DNA from: a virus
Taxonomy: Duplodnaviria > Heunggongvirae > Uroviricota > Caudoviricetes
DNA length: 6,621 bases
Strand: one strand, 5' to 3'
Virus record (IMG/VR): IMGVR_UViG_2563366937_000004
Location: 1-6,621 of that record
Position numbers and translations under genes: made by a program. Numbering within the stretch: the stretch's first letter is position 1; every line of letters begins with the position of its first letter. Positions 1,294-6,621 of this stretch are shown here, piece by piece. The notes below the pieces were generated by a model. It did not search any database, was not told the DNA's origin, and saw nothing but the letters and a program-made list of their open reading frames with translations.

Positions 1294-3912
1294 ATGAGCA
1301 CGAAATTTAAAACCGTTATCACTACTGCCGGAGCCGCAAAGCTGGCAGCCGCCACTGTCCCCGGCGGGAAAAAAGTAACCCTGTCTGCAATGGCCGTGGG
1401 TGACGGTAATGGCAAATTGCCGGTGCCGGATGCCGGTCAGACGAAACTGGTGCATGAGGTCTGGCGTCACGCCCTGAATAAAGTCAGCGTGGATAATAAG
1501 AATAAAAACTATATCGTGGCTGAACTGGTTGTACCGCCCGAAGTGGGCGGCTTCTGGATGCGTGAGCTTGGCCTGTATGACGATGCCGGAACACTGATTG
1601 CGGTCGCCAACATGGCAGAAAGCTATAAGCCTGAACTCGCTGAAGGCTCCGGGCGTGCGCAGACCTGCCGCATGGTTATTATTGTCAGTAACGTGGCGTC
1701 CGTTGAGCTGAGTATTGATGCCAGCACAGTGATGGCGACGCAGGATTACGTCGATGACAAAATCGCAGAACATGAGCAGTCCCGCCGCCATCCTGACGCC
1801 ACGCTGACAGAAAAAGGCTTTACTCAGTTAAGCAGTGCAACAAACAGCACCAGTGAGTCATTGGCGGCAACGCCAAAAGCGGTCAAGGCAGCAAATGACA
1901 ACGCAAATTCACGTCTGGCGAAAAATCAGAATGGTGCAGATATCCAGGATAAATCAGCTTTTCTGGACAATGTTGGCGTTACCAGCCTGACGTTTATGAA
2001 AAACAATGGCGAAATGCCGCTTGATGCCGACCTGAATACATTTGGTCCTGTTAAGGCTTATCTGGGGATCTGGTCTAAAGCTACCTCAACTAACGCAACA
2101 CTGGAGAAAAATTTCCCGGAAGATAATGCTGTCGGTGTGCTTGAGGTTTTTGCTGCCGGCAATTTTGCAGGTACGCAACGCTTTACCACGAGAGACGGCA
2201 ATGTATACATACGCAGACTCGCCAATAAGTGGAATGGCTCTGATGGTCCGTGGGGCATATGGCGTCACACTCAATCAGCTACCCGCCCTTTGAGTACGAC
2301 TATAGACCTGAATACGCTTGGAGCCGCCGAACATCTTGGTTTATGGCGTAACAGTAGCTCGGCTATAGCTTCATATGAACGCAATTATCCAGAGGAAGGC
2401 GGCTTTGCTCAGGGGACGCTTGAGATCCTCGAAGGCGGGAATTATGGAAGAACGCAACGTTATACCACTCGCCGTGGAAATATGTATGTCCGCTGCCTTG
2501 CGGCAAGCTGGGATGCATCAAATCCGCAGTGGGAACCGTGGTTAAGAGTCGGTCATCAGTCAGAGAGTCGTTATTACGAAGGTGATTTAAATGTTCTAAC
2601 CGACCCCGGTATTTACAGTGTTACAGGAAAGGCAACAAACGGTCCGATGCTGGACACCGTTGGCGCGACACTACTTGGGATACTGGAAGTAATCAGACGT
2701 TTTGATGGTGTGTCTGTCTGGCAGCGTTACACAACCACAGGGAAATCAGAAACCACACAGGGGCGCACTTTTGAGCGCGTCTACGCCGGGAGCAAATGGA
2801 CCGAATGGCGAGAAGTATATAACTCCTTTTCGTTGCCTCTGAATCTGGGCATCGGTGGCGCAGTGGCAAAACTATCCAGTCTGGACTGGCAGACCTACGA
2901 CTTTGTGCCGGGCAGTCTGATAACCGTTCGGCTTGATAACATGACCAACATTCCCGACGGTATGGACTGGGGCGTCATTGATGGCAACCTGATAAACATC
3001 GCAGTGGGTCCGAGTGATGATTCCGGTACGGGGCGCTCAATGCATGTATGGCGCAGCACTGTAAGTAAAGCCAACTACCGCTTTTTTATGGCGCGCATTT
3101 CAGGAAATCCGGGAAGCCGCACGATTACAGCAAGACGAGTACCAATCATTGACGAAGCCCAGACATGGGGCGCGAAACAGACATTCAGCGGTGGCCTTTC
3201 AGGTGAGCTGTCCGGCAATGCTGCTACAGCAACAAAGCTGAAAACGGCAAGGACAATTAACGGCGTAAAATTTGACGGCTCGGCAAATATTGAAGCGTTT
3301 CCGCCAGGTGTTCCGCTGCCGTGGCCATCAGATACACCACCTGCAGGCTATGCAATTATGCAAGGCCAGACGTTTGATAAAGCAGCATATCCGAAACTGG
3401 CTATTGCCTATCCTTCTGGTGTTATTCCTGATATGCGCGGCTGGACAATCAAGGGCAAACCCGCCAGTGGGCGAGCCGTATTGTCACAGGAACAGGACGG
3501 GATTAAATCACATACTCACAGTGCCAGTGCGTCAAATACGGACTTAGGAACGAAAACGACCAGTTCATTTGATTACGGCACGAAGACAGTCAGTACGTTT
3601 AACTACGGAACAAAAACCACTAATACCACTGGTAACCATACACATACCATTTACAGAGGGAATGCCAATACTAATGGTGAAACCGGTAAAACAGGCTTTG
3701 ACAACCCATCGTTTAATGGCACATCAGGAGCTGCCGGGAATCATGCCCACACGGTAGATATTGGTGCACATAATCATACTGTTGGTATTGGTGCACATTC
3801 ACACACGGTTGCTATTGGCTCACACGGGCACTCTATTACCGTTAATGCTACAGGTAATACAGAAAACACCGTCAAAAACATCGCATTTAACTATATTGTG
3901 AGGCTTGCATAA
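1294..3912 (+). CDS. H: Tail fiber protein H (gpH-like), 872 aa, mosaic: P2-type N-terminal anchor, three tandem knob-like domains, and a C-terminal His-rich receptor-binding tip of T-even gp37/gp12 type.
   Basis: The N-terminus ([20 protein letters not shown] ... [37 protein letters not shown] ... [21 protein letters not shown]) matches the conserved P2 gpH N-terminal domain from memory. The C-terminus carries GTKT repeats and HxH repeats ([35 protein letters not shown]). It is the largest ORF, sits directly upstream of a Tfa-type chaperone gene, and its stop overlaps the G start. Confidence 0.9.
2029..2823 (+). repeat. Three tandem protein-level repeats of about 80 aa inside H (about aa 246-328, 338-421 and 430-510), each starting with a DLN[TV]L motif: knob-like tail fiber domains.
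   Basis: Aligning by eye, each copy shares DLNTxG ... G(I/L)W ... N(F/Y)PE ... G(V/T)LE(V/I) ... G(T/R)TQR(F/Y)TTRxGN(V/M)Y(I/V)R ... W ... W. Copies 1 and 2 are close; copy 3 is more diverged. Confidence 0.6.
3547..3618 (+). repeat. In-frame tandem 30-bp repeat, about 2.5 copies, encoding [10 protein letters not shown] / [10 protein letters not shown] / GTKTT within the H tip.
   Basis: Direct reading: ggaacgaaaacgaccagttcatttgattac / ggcacgaagacagtcagtacgtttaactac / ggaacaaaaaccact. Confidence 0.7.
3757..3837 (+). repeat. In-frame tandem 27-bp repeat, 3 copies, encoding the His-box units DIGAHNHTV / GIGAHSHTV / [10 protein letters not shown] further diverged unit GNHAHTV lies immediately upstream.
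   Basis: Direct reading: gatattggtgcacataatcatactgtt / ggtattggtgcacattcacacacggtt / gctattggctcacacgggcactctatt. Confidence 0.75.
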
Positions 3913-4490
3913 TGGCTTTCAGAATGAGTGCAGAAGCACAAACTATCCGCGTATTTAATTTACTTGATGGAACCAATGAATTTATTGGGGAAAGTGATGC
4001 GTATATTCCACCGTATACAGGTCTGCCTGCAAACAGTACAGATATTGCGCCGCCTGATATTCCTGCTGGTTATGCAGCCGTTTTCAATGCAGATGAAATG
4101 AAATGGGAACTGATGGAAGACCATCGCGGAAAGACCGTCTATGAAACGAAAACGGGAGCAGCCATTTATATTTCTGAACTTGGCGTATTACCTCCAGACG
4201 TGACAGCTATTTCCCCGGAGGGGGATTATCAGAAATGGAACGGAAATGCGTGGGTGAATGATGAGAATGCAGAGCGTGATGCACTTGTCAGAGCGGCGGA
4301 GTCTCAGAAGAAAGAGCTGATTGCATATGCAGGTGAAATTATTGCCACGCTGCAGGATGCTGTCGATTTAGATATGGCTACCGAGGAAGAAAAGTTAAGT
4401 CTGACACACTGGAAAAAATACCGTGTGCTACTGAATCGCGTTCAGCCGGAAGATGCTCCGGATATAGAATGGCCGGAAATGCCGCGATAA
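3912..4490 (+). CDS. G: Tail fiber assembly protein / chaperone (gpG, Tfa family), 192 aa.
   Basis: ATG at 3912 overlaps the H stop (TAATG). It lies immediately downstream of the tail fiber gene. The C-terminus ([26 protein letters not shown]) resembles the conserved Tfa C-terminal motif found in P2 G, lambda Tfa and Mu U-type chaperones. Confidence 0.85.
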
Positions 4491-4504
4491 ATTGTATTAG
4501 CTCG

Positions 4505-4575
4505 GATGTGAGTTTACACATCTATAGCACAGAGTAAAACCTAATCTGGCTGTCCGCTCTGTGCTAGGAGCGGAC
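4505..4575 (+). promoter_or_regulatory. Cluster of inverted repeats just downstream of G: gatgtg-N6-cacatc (4505-4522), and a 9-bp GC-rich stem tgtccgctc / gagcggaca (4551-4559 / 4568-4576) whose left arm can alternatively pair with agcacagag (4526-4534).
   Basis: Reverse-complement matches checked by hand. No U-tract follows the GC-rich stem, so it is not a canonical intrinsic terminator. It could be an operator, an RNA structure or a weak terminator or attenuator. Confidence 0.3.
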
Positions 4576-4599
4576 ATTACCAAGTAACATGCCTTAATC

Positions 4600-4746
4600 A
4601 AAAGGAAATGGTTAATATATGCCATCATTGTTTGAAAAATACGCAGTCATATATTGCTATGAACATTGTTGGTGCATTAATTTGCTTAAGAAACTACAAT
4701 TAAGCATCATAAAACACTCTTATGACTTTTAAGGCTCTACCGTATC
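4600..4746 (+). promoter_or_regulatory. AT-rich leader upstream of the cargo operon; possible own promoter. No compelling -35/-10 pair was identified.
   Basis: A roughly 250-bp non-coding AT-rich gap separates the G stop from the first cargo ORF. Candidate hexamers (TTGAAA at 4632-4637, TACAAT at 4695-4700) exist, but their spacing is not canonical. Confidence 0.2.
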
Positions 4747-5154
4747 ATGGCTAAGCGGATTCCTGGTGTTAGTAAAGAATGGTCTAACTATCTCCTTTGT
4801 TTATTATTACATATGTCTTTACCTCTCTTACCTTTGGGGTTCGAGACACTTGTGCGTTCCGATCACTTGCCATCAATACAAACATTAAATATTACAGCGG
4901 CGTTTTATGCGATCTCGATAGGGCTTTCTTCTAAGAACGTTGCTATGTTTGGTTTGGGTATATTCGTGAGCATTTGTTTCTCTGTTGTATTTGGGATTGT
5001 TTCTTCAAATCCTAATTCTGATCCTAATCTTAATTTTAATGATAACTTGTATTTTTATTCTCCAATTGCGTGTATTGTTGCTATATTTGTTATACATGCA
5101 TGTGAACGATATAACAGGCATGTTGCTGATTGTACACCATTTTTTGAGTTTTAA
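4747..5154 (+). CDS. Hypothetical small multi-pass inner-membrane protein, 135 aa, about 4 predicted TM helices.
   Basis: A 135-aa ORF in AT-rich DNA, where random ORFs are short. Hydrophobic segments: LLCLLLHMSLPLLPLGF, ITAAFYAISIGL, VAMFGLGIFVSICFSVVFGIVS, PIACIVAIFVIHAC. The N-terminus is positively charged (AKRIPGVSKEW). The Shine-Dalgarno is weak (AAGG at 4731-4734), so the exact start is uncertain; ATG 4813 is an alternative. Confidence 0.55.
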   Translation: MAKRIPGVSKEWSNYLLCLLLHMSLPLLPLGFETLVRSDHLPSIQTLNITAAFYAISIGLSSKNVAMFGLGIFVSICFSVVFGIVSSNPNSDPNLNFNDNLYFYSPIACIVAIFVIHACERYNRHVADCTPFFEF

Positions 5155-5163
5155 GGGGGTGCT

Positions 5164-5655
5164 ATGATTGATACAATTATCCCAGTAATACTATCAATTC
5201 TCCCGGCAATACTATCTATATTTAGCTTAGTAGCTGTTTTTATAGGTGCATTAGTATCTATCAGGTCTGTTAAAAAAAGACGTGAAATAGAAGTTCAGCT
5301 TTTTAATGAGATAATAAATCAACAAATTAAACAAACTAAAAGCAACCGTAAAAAGGATCTTGAAAATAGTGTTAATGAAATAGAAAATGAACTCAAGAGA
5401 AGAGTTGATATTTTGAATAAAATGCAAAAAGATCTAGAAGCAGTTTCAGAGAACAAATACTATTTTGATAAAGCAAAATTTCTTCGAAATGTCAAGTATG
5501 GAGAGTATTTATTAGAGATAAATGAAGCTGTGAATAATATTGATAATAAAAACAAACACTTACTAAATAACGCTCTTAATCAAAGCTCTGAGATTGGAAA
5601 AGTAAGATATCTTGGAAGAATAACAAAGGAAGCACTGGAAAAAACAGTAGGCTGA
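5164..5655 (+). CDS. Hypothetical membrane-anchored coiled-coil protein, 163 aa: one N-terminal TM helix followed by a charged K/E/N-rich, probably alpha-helical domain.
   Basis: Strong Shine-Dalgarno AAGGGGG (5153-5159) sits 4 nt before ATG 5164 and overlaps the upstream gene's TAA (5152-5154), indicating translational coupling. The TM segment is IIPVILSILPAILSIFSLVAVFIGALVSI, followed by RSVKKRRE (positive-inside) and then a heptad-like charged sequence. Confidence 0.65.
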   Translation: MIDTIIPVILSILPAILSIFSLVAVFIGALVSIRSVKKRREIEVQLFNEIINQQIKQTKSNRKKDLENSVNEIENELKRRVDILNKMQKDLEAVSENKYYFDKAKFLRNVKYGEYLLEINEAVNNIDNKNKHLLNNALNQSSEIGKVRYLGRITKEALEKTVG

Positions 5656-5838
5656 TCATTTTTTCCGCTCGTAATAGATAAACTCAAAGGTTCTTTTTGA
5701 GAGCCTTTGAGTTTCAATCTTACCAATATTACTCACCATTTCTTTAGCAGCAATTTGGGGACTATAACTTCTACTTCTTGCTGTGAGTTCAACCGATGGA
5801 TACAACACATTGGCTAAAACGCCCTGTGGGTGATTCAT
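5656..5838 (-). CDS. Questionable small ORF (60 aa), convergent with the cargo operon; possible small protein or remnant.
   Basis: ORF bounded by an in-frame stop 2 codons upstream of its ATG. There is no convincing Shine-Dalgarno. Its stop abuts the stop of the 5164..5655 gene within the palindrome TGATCA (5653-5658). GC content is intermediate. No recognisable motifs. Confidence 0.2.
   Translation of the reverse strand: MNHPQGVLANVLYPSVELTARSRSYSPQIAAKEMVSNIGKIETQRLSKRTFEFIYYERKK
5682..5712 (+). terminator. Hairpin (9-bp stem actcaaagg / cctttgagt, 13-nt loop) 27 nt downstream of the cargo operon stop; weak terminator candidate.
   Basis: Reverse-complement arms verified by hand. The loop is large and the downstream T-tract is poor, so confidence is low. 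Confidence 0.25.
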
Positions 5839-5898
5839 AGTCTAGCGTTTGGACTCCGTAAATTCACAGTTGGAAACTGAGCGAGTACAAATCAAGGC

Positions 5899-5926
5899 AG
5901 GCGGGCTGATTGCCCGCCTTTTCTTT
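5899..5926 (+). terminator. Rho-independent terminator: 8-bp GC-rich stem (aggcgggc / gcccgcct), 5-nt loop (tgatt), followed by a T-tract (tttctttat).
   Basis: Arms at 5899-5906 and 5912-5919 are exact reverse complements, with a T-rich run at 5919-5930. It is positioned where the tail fiber transcription unit would be expected to end, before the FI promoter. Confidence 0.6.
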
Positions 5927-6022
5927 ATCTGTTGTTTCATCCACTGGCCAGCCAGGCCAAATAGCGTCTCATGCTCTGCACAACAGAAAATAGTTGCACC
6001 CATTAACCACGGAGTTAAACGG
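5927..6022 (+). promoter_or_regulatory. Putative late promoter and leader of the tail sheath operon, with FI Shine-Dalgarno GGAG at 6011-6014. Contains inverted repeats ctgttgt (5929-5935) / acaacag (5980-5986) and tggcc (5945-5949) / ggcca (5955-5959).
   Basis: Position between a terminator and FI start. In P2, FI heads a separate late operon activated by Ogr. I could not find an exact TGT-N12-ACA Ogr-type site, so the promoter assignment is by position only. Confidence 0.3.
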
Positions 6023-6621
6023 ATGAGTGACTATCATCACGGCGTGCAGGTGCTGGAGATTAACGACGGCACCCGCGTCATTTCCACCGTATCCACTGCC
6101 ATTGTCGGCATGGTTTGCACTGCCAGCGATGCGGATGCGGAAACCTTCCCCCTCAATAAACCGGTGCTGATTACCAATGTGCAGAGCGCAATTGCAAAGG
6201 CCGGTAAAAAAGGCACGCTGGCGGCATCGTTGCAGGCCATCGCCGACCAGTCAAAACCAGTGACTGTTGTTGTGCGCGTGGAAGACGGCACCGGCGAAGA
6301 CGAAGAAACGAAACTCGCGCAGACCGTTTCCAATATCATCGGCACCACCGACGAAAACGGTCAGTATACCGGACTGAAAGCCCTGCTGGCGGCAGAGTCG
6401 GTAACCGGTGTTAAACCGCGTATTCTCGGTGTGCCGGGACTGGACACCAAAGAGGTGGCTGTTGCACTGGCATCAGTCTGCCAGAAGCTGCGCGCTTTCG
6501 GGTATATCAGCGCATGGGGCTGTAAAACCATTTCCGAGGTGAAAGCCTACCGCCAGAATTTCAGCCAGCGTGAGCTGATGGTCATCTGGCCGGATTTCCT
6601 CGCATGGGATACGGTCACCAG
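6023..6621 (+). CDS. FI: Tail sheath protein FI (gpFI-like), 3'-truncated by the window edge.
   Basis: ATG 6023 lies 8 nt after GGAG. My own translation begins [52 protein letters not shown]..., which matches the P2 tail sheath N-terminus from memory. The frame stays open to the window end. It was not in the ORF table only because it has no stop in the window. Confidence 0.9.

What the first reader, a model, noticed from the sequence alone, without database searches (positions are those of the whole stretch)
5164..5655. Translationally coupled single-pass membrane protein with a long coiled-coil cytoplasmic domain
This is the best-supported gene in the cassette. A strong Shine-Dalgarno AAGGGGG overlaps the stop codon of the upstream membrane protein gene, arguing that the two proteins are made together and probably function as a complex. 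The architecture (N-terminal TM anchor, a KKRRE stop-transfer, then about 130 aa of K/E/N-rich heptad-like sequence) resembles membrane-tethered sensor or scaffold proteins rather than enzymes.
Basis: seen in the sequence. Interest (0 to 1): 0.65.

Follow-up and report, generated by a model that had tools for sequence, protein, structure and literature searches.

The report
Uncharacterised two-protein membrane cassette in P2 prophage
The gene is real and encodes a membrane-anchored helical protein that always travels with a small four-helix membrane partner; the pair sits in a known anti-phage hotspot of a P2-like prophage and in defence islands of other bacteria, so it is probably an undescribed phage-exclusion module, though no function has been tested.

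Summary
The ORF at 5164-5655 (163 aa, "B") is a real gene under purifying selection (dN/dS 0.19-0.40). The ribosome-binding site UAAGGGGGU overlaps the TAA stop of the upstream gene "A" (4747-5154). B has an N-out/C-in membrane anchor followed by RSVKKRRE.

The "long coiled coil" is overstated. Only residues ~60-98 show a significant heptad register, and that stretch is an enterobacterial insertion. AlphaFold gives five short helices at low confidence (pLDDT 48).

The window is the late region of a P2-like prophage. A and B form a 1.26-kb cassette (4495-5756) between tail genes G and FI, the Z/fun defence hotspot. The same pair, always tightly coupled, occurs in:
- lambdoid and Acinetobacter prophages
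- a Pectobacterium ICE
- islands next to Qat, CBASS, DarTG, Mrr and restriction-modification systems
- at least eight phyla overall

A is a confidently predicted 4-helix membrane bundle (pLDDT 88) with invariant His/Glu residues. B evolves 2-3 times faster.

Neither protein matches Pfam, NCBIfam, PADLOC, PDB, RexA or RexB.

Best reading: a new two-component inner-membrane phage-exclusion module, with A as effector and B as cytoplasm-facing sensor or regulator. The function is inferred, not shown.

The parts
4495..5756 (+). Mobile two-gene cassette (regulatory region, gene A, gene B, terminator hairpin) inserted between P2 tail genes G (ends 4490) and FI (starts 6024), at the Z/fun variable locus
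   Evidence: 87% DNA identity over exactly 4495-5756 to copies in unrelated E. coli chromosomal islands (L009-L011). Shorter 76-78% matches to Morganella, Pectobacterium and Klebsiella copies. GC is 29-36% against 52-56% in the flanking tail genes. Flanking genes were identified.
4552..4575 (+). GC-rich 9-bp hairpin at the left edge of the cassette. It may insulate or terminate transcription coming from H-G.
   Evidence: Folding energy -16.9 kcal/mol, z -3.5. The stem is retained in other copies of the cassette. Its function is inferred.
4628..4655 (+). Candidate sigma-70 promoter of the cassette: TTGTTT, 16-nt spacer, TATATT
   Evidence: Read from the sequence and partly conserved in the alignment of upstream regions. 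The consensus scanner did not call it. This is inference only.
4747..5154 (+). Gene A: a 135-aa four-helix inner-membrane protein and the obligate partner of the finding. Invariant residues are H22, P26, P29, E33, Y54, S62, G83, H117, E120, R121, Y122, N123 and H125. The HxxERYN(R/K)H motif lies at nt 5095-5121.
   Evidence: phrog_22626, E 4e-68, function unknown. 58 homologue clusters. Alignment A2. AlphaFold2 pLDDT 88, pTM 0.80, helices 10-36, 44-60, 65-87 and 99-127. dN/dS 0.09-0.14.
5152..5160 (+). Shine-Dalgarno UAAGGGGGU for gene B, overlapping the TAA stop of gene A (5152-5154)
   Evidence: Read from the sequence. Conserved in all enterobacterial copies. Not sequestered in RNA structure (z -0.05).
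5164..5655 (+). Gene B (the finding): a 163-aa single-pass N-out/C-in membrane protein with an all-helical cytoplasmic domain
5173..5262 (+). Transmembrane helix of B (residues 4-33). It contains a 7-aa tandem duplication, PVILSIL/PAILSIF (nt 5182-5223), found only in the P2-borne allele.
   Evidence: Hydropathy. The helix is 30 aa here against 23 aa in the other enterobacterial copies (19-28 aa across the other family members).
5263..5286 (+). Basic stop-transfer segment RSVKKRRE (residues 34-41), leading into the conserved juxtamembrane (R/K)xxAExxL segment
5341..5457 (+). The only segment with a significant heptad register (residues ~60-98). It lies within a K/E/N-rich insertion specific to enterobacterial B proteins.
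   Evidence: Heptad scan against shuffles. The insertion is seen in alignment A3.
5572..5634 (+). Family-defining C-terminal motif of B: ALNQSSEIGKVRYLGRITKEA (residues 137-157); consensus ALxQxSxxG(R/K)xRYLxKL
   Evidence: Q140 is nearly invariant across 26 sequences from several phyla. The motif was located in 28 sequences.
5671..5723 (+). Long hairpin followed by UUUCAAUCUU: the probable terminator of the A-B operon, inside the conserved cassette
   Evidence: Inverted repeat I2. Folding energy -23.9 kcal/mol, z -7.0.
5899..5919 (.). Bidirectional intrinsic terminator in the conserved P2 backbone upstream of FI. It is not part of the cassette.
   Evidence: The region 5843-6023 is shared with many P2-like phages and overlaps the 'right inverted repeat' of the P2-EC67 Z region.

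Best explanation
Gene B encodes the membrane-anchored, cytoplasm-facing subunit of a conserved two-protein inner-membrane module. Its obligate partner is the four-helix membrane protein A, encoded immediately upstream and translationally coupled to it.

The pair is a self-contained 1.26-kb accessory cassette with its own upstream region and terminator. It moves between cargo slots of mobile elements. Here it sits in the Z/fun anti-phage hotspot of a P2-like prophage.

The most likely function is protection of the lysogen against other phages by an abortive-infection-like mechanism, in these steps:
1. A is the effector. It is slow-evolving and carries invariant His/Glu/Arg/Tyr/Asn residues in mid-membrane and at the cytoplasmic face. 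It would act as a gated ion or proton leak, or as some other membrane-perturbing activity.
2. B is the regulator or sensor and evolves 2-3 times faster. It would pack its single helix against A.
3. B would hold A in check, or activate it, through its juxtamembrane segment and its C-terminal QxSxxGRxRY motif.
4. The trigger would be a phage-derived cue in the cytoplasm.

Shown: gene reality, coupling, topology signal, obligate pairing, mobility, and hotspot or defence-island context.

Inferred: physical complex, the division of labour between A and B, the anti-phage role, and the membrane-leak mechanism.
For: **Pairing and coupling**
- The junction is conserved.
- A is followed by a B-type protein in 19 of 22 informative loci across many phyla, with a gap of -19 to +15 nt in 18 of them (the frameshifted L048 copy has +36).
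- Distant B homologues found by profile search also have the 129-aa partner upstream.

**Accessory and mobile nature**
- The cassette has discrete boundaries and low GC.
- It is present in 2 of 5,426 complete E. coli genomes, 1 of 50,697 phage records and 0 of 72,556 plasmids.
- It was found in 26 loci among representative genomes of 185,579 species, spread over at least eight phyla.

**Context**
- The P2 locus between G and FI is a described second defence hotspot that holds fun and three validated systems (PMC9519451).
- Morganella lambdoid prophage, nin region.
- A lambdoid viral contig, between Q and the holin.
- Acinetobacter prophage early region, next to ParE.
- Pectobacterium ICE.
- Islands next to QatABCD plus CBASS, and next to NERD-UvrD.
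- Next to Mrr.
- Next to DarT/DarG and an integrase.
- Next to type I restriction-modification in one strain, or RT plus GmrSD plus HEPN in a sister strain.

**Effector and sensor asymmetry**
- dN/dS is 0.09-0.14 for A against 0.19-0.40 for B.
- A stays at or above 35% identity across phyla, while B falls to ~16%.
- A is a confident 4-TM bundle.

**Topology of B**
- The positive-inside signal is very strong.
Against: - No phenotype is known for any member.
- Neither protein hits any of 5,027 PADLOC models, Pfam or NCBIfam.
- In the non-enterobacterial loci most neighbours are housekeeping genes, and defence or mobile-element genes are only occasional. The defence-island association therefore rests mainly on the enterobacterial, Acinetobacter and Duganella copies.
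- B alone gives no confident fold.
- A-B contact could not be modelled.
- A has no significant structural neighbour, so "channel" is a guess from invariant polar residues.
- Expression in the lysogen is not shown, and the promoter call is weak.
Confidence: 0.45

Rival explanations
1. Passive superinfection exclusion. The A-B membrane complex sits in the inner membrane of the lysogen and blocks genome entry of incoming phages, in the manner of T4 Imm, P22 SieA or HK97 gp15. There would be no sensing step and no cell death.
For: The cassette encodes prophage-borne small inner-membrane proteins in several different prophage moron slots. The same P2 locus carries fun, an exclusion gene (PMC9519451). 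No enzymatic or nucleotide-binding domain is present.
Against: Entry blockers usually bind lineage-specific phage or host proteins. A keeps the same invariant polar residues from Chloroflexota to Enterobacterales, which suggests a universal substrate. Many copies lie in non-phage chromosomal islands. B's large cytoplasmic domain with a conserved motif is hard to explain for a periplasm-side block.
Confidence: 0.2
2. Addiction or toxin-antitoxin-like module. A is a membrane toxin and B its co-translated antidote. The pair would stabilise the mobile element that carries it, with no primary anti-phage role.
For: The pair is tightly coupled, is found on prophages, an ICE, integrase islands and a possible small Rop plasmid, and has a patchy distribution. 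The Acinetobacter copy is next to ParE.
Against: The putative toxin gene precedes the putative antidote and is the more conserved of the two. No labile-antitoxin feature is evident. Many copies sit among housekeeping genes with no mobile element nearby. This reading also overlaps with the abortive-infection reading, since many toxin-antitoxin systems are defence systems.
Confidence: 0.1
3. Immunity against membrane-targeting toxins such as pore-forming colicins or T6SS and CDI effectors. Small 3-4 TM inner-membrane proteins are the usual immunity proteins for such toxins.
For: The E. coli island copies lie beside T6SS genes (VasL, ImpA/VasJ, TsiV, gp25-like). The Pectobacterium copy lies beside an orphan Hcp. 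A has the size and topology of colicin immunity proteins.
Against: No cognate toxin gene is adjacent in any locus examined. The same islands hold bona fide anti-phage systems. Immunity proteins do not normally need a second, cytoplasm-facing subunit. The distribution reaches phyla and contexts without T6SS.
Confidence: 0.08
4. Lysis accessory. A would be a holin-like protein and B an antiholin or spanin-like protein that tunes lysis timing.
For: B's layout (N-terminal anchor plus helical domain, ~150 aa) superficially resembles the i-spanin Rz. The best, though non-significant, structural neighbour of A among viral models is a Gordonia phage holin (E 0.49, TM 0.51). One lambdoid copy lies between Q and the holin.
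Against: B's topology signal is the reverse of Rz, with the helical domain cytoplasmic. There is no lipoprotein o-spanin partner. In P2 the cassette lies between tail genes, not in the lysis cluster. Most copies are outside phages. There is no PHROG lysis hit.
Confidence: 0.05
5. Ordinary physiological membrane function: a small ion or metal transporter or stress module with an accessory subunit, carried by mobile elements only by chance.
For: Invariant His/Glu residues could bind a metal or proton. Four A homologues give weak MerC hits (E >= 0.0011). Foldseek lists zinc transporters among its hits (E 2.8 and 7.2-8.4). Many distant copies have housekeeping neighbours.
Against: All those matches are far below significance. 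The family is extremely sparse for a housekeeping function. It sits in prophage, ICE and defence hotspots in every well-sampled lineage.
Confidence: 0.07

Closest known systems
Lambda RexAB exclusion system
   Same: It is a prophage-borne two-protein system. One subunit, RexB, is a ~140-aa four-helix inner-membrane protein (144 aa in lambda), thought to be an ion channel. The other subunit faces the cytoplasm and controls it. Both are accessory cargo expressed for the benefit of the lysogen.
   Different: No sequence relationship was found. hhalign gave probability 0.2% for A against RexB and 0.2% for B against RexA, and there is no Pfam or PADLOC Rex hit. The gene order is reversed: the membrane protein comes first here. 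B has its own membrane anchor and is about half the size of RexA. The resemblance is one of architecture only.
Cargo of the P2 Z/fun hotspot (fun, and the PD systems of Vassallo et al. 2022)
   Same: The chromosomal slot is identical, between tail-fibre assembly gene G and sheath gene FI. That slot is reported as a second defence-enriched locus of P2-like phages (PMC9519451). The conserved flanking repeat region is shared with P2-EC67.
   Different: The proteins are unrelated to any PADLOC model, including the PD-T4, PD-T7 and PD-lambda systems. This cassette is rare: it was found in 2 of 5,426 complete E. coli genomes, whereas 1,054 of them matched part of the query, mostly its flanking P2 backbone.
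Membrane-effector defence pairs (Kiwa KwaAB, Zorya ZorAB, mycobacteriophage Butters gp30/gp31)
   Same: Each is a small operon that combines a multi-pass membrane protein with a partner. Each is found in defence islands or prophages. This comparison rests on my own knowledge of these systems.
   Different: No hit to KwaA/B or to ZorA/B models was found. The only trace is a meaningless ZorA_3 match at E 0.43. Both proteins here are much smaller, and neither carries a known domain.
i-spanin Rz
   Same: It has an N-terminal membrane anchor followed by a ~130-aa helical, partly coiled-coil domain, and it is phage-encoded.
   Different: The predicted topology is opposite: the helical domain here is cytoplasmic. 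There is no o-spanin partner and the gene is not in a lysis cassette. There is no homology.

Membership tests
Lambda RexAB | Membrane subunit homologous to RexB | tested here: not met
   hhalign of alignment A2 against lambda RexB gave probability 0.2%. No Pfam or PADLOC hit for A or its 33 aligned homologues.
Lambda RexAB | Cytoplasmic sensor subunit homologous to RexA | tested here: not met
   hhalign of alignment A3 against lambda RexA gave probability 0.2%.
Lambda RexAB | A ~140-aa four-helix inner-membrane protein encoded beside its regulator in a prophage | tested here: met
   A is 135 aa with four predicted membrane helices at pLDDT 88. It lies in a P2-like prophage.
Lambda RexAB | Membrane depolarisation and abortive infection on phage attack | not testable with these tools
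   This needs infection and membrane-potential assays.
P2 Z/fun hotspot cargo | Non-essential, variable insert between G (tail-fibre assembly) and FI (sheath), flanked by conserved P2 sequence | tested here: met
   G was identified by Caudo_TAP, E 4e-41. FI starts at 6024. 1,054 E. coli genomes share only the flanks. The locus is described in PMC9519451 and in the AJ512685 annotation.
Known anti-phage defence systems (PADLOC-DB v2.0.0) | Significant match of either protein to a defence-system model | tested here: not met
   The best E-value for B was 0.17, and there was no hit for A. Defence catalogues newer than 2023 (for example current DefenseFinder models) could not be searched.
Coiled-coil protein | A continuous heptad register over most of the cytoplasmic domain | tested here: not met
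   Only residues ~60-98 exceed the shuffle threshold. AlphaFold2 breaks the domain into five helices. The scan was home-made. MARCOIL and DeepCoil were not available.
i-spanin (Rz-like) | N-in/C-out topology with a periplasmic helical domain | tested here: not met
   Charge distribution around the helix is 1 K/R at the N-flank against 117 at the C-flank over 22 sequences. This is a prediction, not an experiment.
i-spanin (Rz-like) | An adjacent or embedded o-spanin lipoprotein gene within a lysis cassette | tested here: not met
   The neighbours are gene A and tail genes.
HEPN ribonuclease | An Rx4-6H catalytic motif in a four-helix domain | tested here: not met
   The window protein has a single His (H132, in NKHLL), which is not part of an Rx4-6H motif. 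RNxxxH occurs in only 2-3 distant homologues. The one Pfam hit is below threshold, at 24.2 against 28.4 bits.
Holin | A membrane protein of a lysis cassette with holin homology or fold | tested here: inconclusive
   The best BFVD neighbour of A is a Gordonia phage holin, but at E 0.49 and TM 0.51. There is no PHROG or Pfam holin hit. The location is not a lysis cassette.

The most novel reading that the evidence does not exclude
A and B define a previously unnamed, phylum-spanning family of two-component inner-membrane immune modules. The effector would be a new type of gated 4-helix channel built around invariant H22/E33/H117/E120/H125. B would be a fast-evolving membrane-tethered sensor that reads a phage cue in the cytoplasm. 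The RNxxxH motif kept by a few distant B proteins may be a relic of an ancestral membrane-anchored HEPN RNase. The family currently has no Pfam, NCBIfam or PADLOC entry.
Probability: 0.3. Interest if true: 0.7.

Novelty: new variant of a known kind. Interest (0 to 1): 0.55.

Why it matters
Prophage hotspots are the richest source of new bacterial immune systems. Cassettes made only of small membrane proteins are systematically missed, because they carry no recognisable domains.

This pair is compact (1.26 kb) and conserved as a unit from Enterobacterales to Chloroflexota. It is absent from every family database searched. It also sits in a validated defence hotspot, so it is cheap to test.

If it protects against phage, it would:
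- add a new membrane effector fold to bacterial immunity;
- give a second, independent example of the RexAB-like design (a four-helix membrane protein plus a cytoplasm-facing controller), whose mechanism has been debated for decades.

If it does not protect, it is simply one more uncharacterised moron.

Tried and rejected
**Structure prediction and fold search**
- AlphaFold2 of B with 14 close homologues gave pLDDT 48. That is too poor for fold searching, so B was not searched against structure libraries.
- The AFDB50 fold library was unavailable.

**Homology searches**
- A profile search for B against 1.84 billion representatives found only 9 proteins.
- An alignment-seeded word search added five more. 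B diverges too fast for sequence searches, so most distant B proteins were found through their partner A.
- PDB sequence searches with both profiles found nothing meaningful.
- RexA/RexB homology was rejected.

**Ideas considered and dropped**
- HEPN was considered after a sub-threshold hit in one Shewanella homologue. It was rejected for the window protein because the motif is absent there and the domain is too short.
- A LuxR/sigma-r4-like reading of the C-terminal motif was considered by eye. It was dropped because the segment is about 20 aa too short for that fold.
- Stop-codon read-through fusion (A and B share a frame here) was rejected because the spacer is 8 nt in the Klebsiella and Pectobacterium copies.

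**Other checks**
- Rfam found no RNA family in 4400-6100.
- The minus-strand ORFs 5656-5838 and 5842-6003 were judged not to be cassette genes.
- Literature searches by accession and by keywords found no description of the pair.
Full report
**What the window is**

The 6.6-kb window is the late-gene region of a P2-like (Peduovirus) prophage. Its layout is as follows:
- baseplate J, partial (65-760);
- I (753-1283);
- tail fibre H (1294-3912);
- tail-fibre assembly G (3912-4490; Caudo_TAP, E 4e-41);
- a 1.5-kb AT-rich insert;
- the tail sheath gene FI, from 6024.

The insert has 29-36% GC against 52-56% in the tail genes. It occupies the slot called the Z/fun region in P2. That slot is annotated as a variable region bounded by inverted repeats in P2-EC67. 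Vassallo et al. 2022 describe it as a second defence-enriched locus of P2-like phages, holding fun and three of their validated systems (PMC9519451).

**Checking the observation**

The ORF at 5164-5655 is as described: 163 aa, with an ATG start. The upstream ORF "A" (4747-5154, 135 aa) ends with TAA at 5152-5154. The sequence UAAGGGGGU (5152-5160) is an 8-of-9 match to the consensus Shine-Dalgarno, and the ATG follows 4 nt later. The site is not buried in RNA structure.

Residues 4-33 form a strongly hydrophobic helix, followed by RSVKKRRE.

The gene is under purifying selection, with dN/dS of 0.19-0.40 in seven comparisons.

The one part that does not hold is the "~130 aa heptad-like" coiled coil:
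- A 28-residue heptad scan exceeds the 95th percentile of shuffles only for windows within residues ~60-98.
- AlphaFold2 splits the domain into five helices at low confidence, pLDDT 48.
- The heptad-like stretch lies in a ~35-aa K/E/N-rich insertion peculiar to enterobacterial members.

**The partner, and the pair as a unit**

The upstream gene A matches phrog_22626 (E 4e-68, function unknown) and nothing else. It has 58 homologue clusters.

Thirteen residues are invariant across 34 aligned sequences: H22, P26, P29, E33, Y54, S62, G83, H117, E120, R121, Y122, N123 and H125. These include a PLLPL kink in helix 1 and an HxxERYN(R/K)H motif at the cytoplasmic end of helix 4.

AlphaFold2 models A confidently as a four-helix membrane bundle: pLDDT 88, pTM 0.80. 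With a basic N-terminus and four helices, both termini should be cytoplasmic. This topology is inferred.

B has only 13 close clusters, all in Enterobacterales, and 9 representatives in a 1.84-billion-protein profile search.

Looking downstream of A homologues in representative genomes found a B-type protein in 19 of 22 informative loci. A B-type protein has an N-terminal helix, a basic stop-transfer, an AExxL segment, a variable helical middle, and the C-terminal motif ALxQxSxxG(R/K)xRYLxKL. The loci come from:
- Gamma- and Betaproteobacteria;
- Gemmatimonadota;
- Chloroflexota;
- Planctomycetota;
- Cyanobacteria;
- a candidate phylum.

The two genes overlap by 4 nt (ATGA/GTGA), by 1 nt, or lie no more than 15 nt apart. 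The exact stop/SD/start junction of the window is conserved in all enterobacterial copies. Distant B proteins found independently by profile search also have the 129-aa partner upstream.

A evolves 2-3 times more slowly than B: dN/dS is 0.09-0.14 against 0.19-0.40. Obligate, translationally coupled co-occurrence across such distances is strong evidence that the proteins work together, most simply as a membrane complex.

**The cassette is mobile cargo**

DNA homology with E. coli chromosomal-island copies runs exactly from 4495 to 5756 at 87% identity. This unit contains:
- ~250 bp of partly conserved upstream sequence, with a GC hairpin at 4552-4575 and a weak candidate promoter at 4628-4655;
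- gene A and gene B;
- a 17-bp hairpin at 5671-5723, which is a plausible terminator.

The cassette is rare:

| Collection searched | Copies found |
|---|---|
| 5,426 complete E. coli genomes | 2 |
| 50,697 phage records | 1 phage (P24A7b, two records of the same genome) |
| 72,556 plasmids | 0 |
| 2.9 million IMG/VR contigs | 5 |
| Representative genomes of 185,579 species | 26 loci |

The last count comes from a pattern-based scan, so it is an undercount.

Where it occurs in well-sampled lineages, it sits in cargo slots:
- the nin region of a Morganella lambdoid prophage;
- between Q and the holin of another lambdoid element, and beside the integrase of a 45-kb viral contig;
- the early region of an Acinetobacter prophage, next to ParE;
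- a Pectobacterium ICE beside its type IV secretion genes;
- E. coli islands directly next to QatABCD plus CBASS, or next to NERD-UvrD;
- next to Mrr in Klebsiella;
- an integrase island with DarT/DarG in Pectobacterium;
- an integrase-bounded Duganella site whose other content is type I restriction-modification in one strain and RT plus GmrSD plus HEPN in a sister strain.

One caveat applies. In 18 more distant loci the neighbours are mostly housekeeping genes, with only occasional integrases, methyltransferases, AbiEi or candidate-defence hits.

**What it is not**

- Neither protein, nor any of 26 B or 34 A homologues, reaches threshold for any Pfam family.
- Neither hits NCBIfam, June 2026 release, or any of 5,027 PADLOC models.
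- Neither hits PDB sequences.
- hhalign rejects homology to lambda RexB and RexA, at probability 0.2% each.
- B is not an i-spanin. Its predicted topology is inverted, there is no lipoprotein partner, and it is not in a lysis cassette.
- A sub-threshold HEPN_RiboL-PSP hit (24.2 against 28.4 bits) in the Shewanella homologue reflects an RNxxxH motif. That motif is also seen in a Gemmatimonadales homologue and loosely in a third, but the window protein lacks it.
- Literature searches by accession and by topic found no description of the pair.

**Most likely mechanism**

I take the pair to be a two-component inner-membrane phage-exclusion module. This is inferred, not shown.

A would be the effector. 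It is strongly constrained from Chloroflexota to E. coli and has invariant polar residues in mid-membrane (H22, Y54) and at the cytoplasmic face (S62, H117, E120-H125). That pattern suits an activity on a universal target such as the membrane potential or an ion gradient.

B would be the regulator or sensor. It is anchored beside A by its single helix and is made in fixed proportion through translational coupling. It presents to the cytoplasm a fast-evolving helical domain and a conserved C-terminal motif that probably contacts A. The enterobacterial heptad insertion may add oligomerisation.

This is the design attributed to lambda RexAB: a 144-aa four-helix RexB plus a cytoplasmic RexA. It appears to have been reached independently.

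Confidence is about 0.45 that the cassette is an anti-phage Abi-like module working this way. It is considerably higher, roughly 0.85, that A and B act as a pair.

The rivals, in order of likelihood, are:
1. a passive entry block;
2. an addiction or toxin-antitoxin module;
3. immunity to membrane-targeting toxins, suggested by T6SS genes nearby;
4. a small transporter;
5. a lysis accessory.

**Novelty and verdict**

The gene and its coupling are real. The coiled-coil description is overstated. The interesting object is the A-B pair rather than B alone.

The kind of thing (accessory membrane cargo in a prophage defence hotspot, RexAB-like in layout) is known. The protein families themselves are unnamed and unrelated to any characterised system, so I rate it a new variant of a known kind.

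Interest is moderate, at 0.55. It is a cheap, well-delimited candidate for a new membrane-based defence system with unusually broad phylogenetic reach. There is no functional evidence yet, and the defence-island signal outside the well-sampled lineages is only partial.

Noticed in passing
window 5182-5223 and 5011-5040 (approx.): The P2-borne allele differs from all other copies in two ways. A 7-aa tandem duplication inside B's membrane helix (PVILSIL/PAILSIF) makes the helix 30 aa instead of 23. A 6-aa insertion (NSDPNL) lies in A's predicted periplasmic loop between helices 3 and 4. Two matched changes in the membrane-proximal parts of both partners might be co-adaptation.
   Followed up: partly
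window 4552-4575: A GC-rich 9-bp hairpin (GTCCGCTCT...AGGAGCGGAC; -16.9 kcal/mol, z -3.5) marks the left edge of the cassette. It is retained in copies from other genera. It may act as an insulator or terminator against read-through from the H-G late operon.
   Followed up: partly
window 5656-5838 (- strand): This 60-aa ORF is annotated as a hypothetical protein (gp25) in Peduovirus P24A7b but was not called by PGAP in E. coli AR_0081. It contains the 17-bp terminator-like hairpin, straddles the cassette boundary at 5756, and has no family hit. It is probably not a gene.
   Followed up: partly
window 5842-6003 (- strand): This 53-aa ORF matches only the N-terminal 35 residues of phrog_11095 (E 6e-18), and the bidirectional terminator 5899-5919 lies inside it. 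It looks like a truncated remnant in the conserved P2 sequence upstream of FI.
   Followed up: no
L028 (Shewanella), L031 (Gemmatimonadales), L045 (gammaproteobacterial MAG): B homologues: A HEPN-like RNxxxH or Rx4H motif (IRNKLVHG, HRNLLVHA, REQMVHG) sits in the variable middle of a few distant B proteins. One of them gives a sub-threshold HEPN_RiboL-PSP hit. The motif is absent from the window protein. It may be a relic of an ancestral activity, or chance.
   Followed up: partly
window 5152-5166: Genes A and B are in the same reading frame, separated by TAA GGG GGT GCT. Stop-codon read-through would therefore give an A-GGA-B fusion. The 9-nt spacer is shared by several copies, but Klebsiella and Pectobacterium island copies have 8 nt, so this is probably incidental.
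   Followed up: yes
L019 (5.9-kb metagenomic contig), L020, L021: A diverged copy of the cassette (B 38% identical) lies on a short contig that also encodes a Rop protein. This suggests a small ColE1-type plasmid as yet another carrier. An unrelated 129-aa gene recurs upstream of it.
   Followed up: no
window 1294-3912 (tail fibre H): The 872-aa tail fibre contains three ~100-aa internal repeats (…[16 protein letters not shown]…, …[16 protein letters not shown]…, …[22 protein letters not shown]…). It also has a C-terminal His-rich HxH repeat region (GNHTHT…[24 protein letters not shown]).
   Followed up: no
L053 vs L054 (two Duganella strains): The same integrase-adjacent site carries the A-B pair in both strains, but the neighbouring block is swapped. 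One strain has type I restriction-modification with a NucS-like gene. The other has a reverse transcriptase, GmrSD and a HEPN protein. This looks like a live defence-island hotspot.
   Followed up: no
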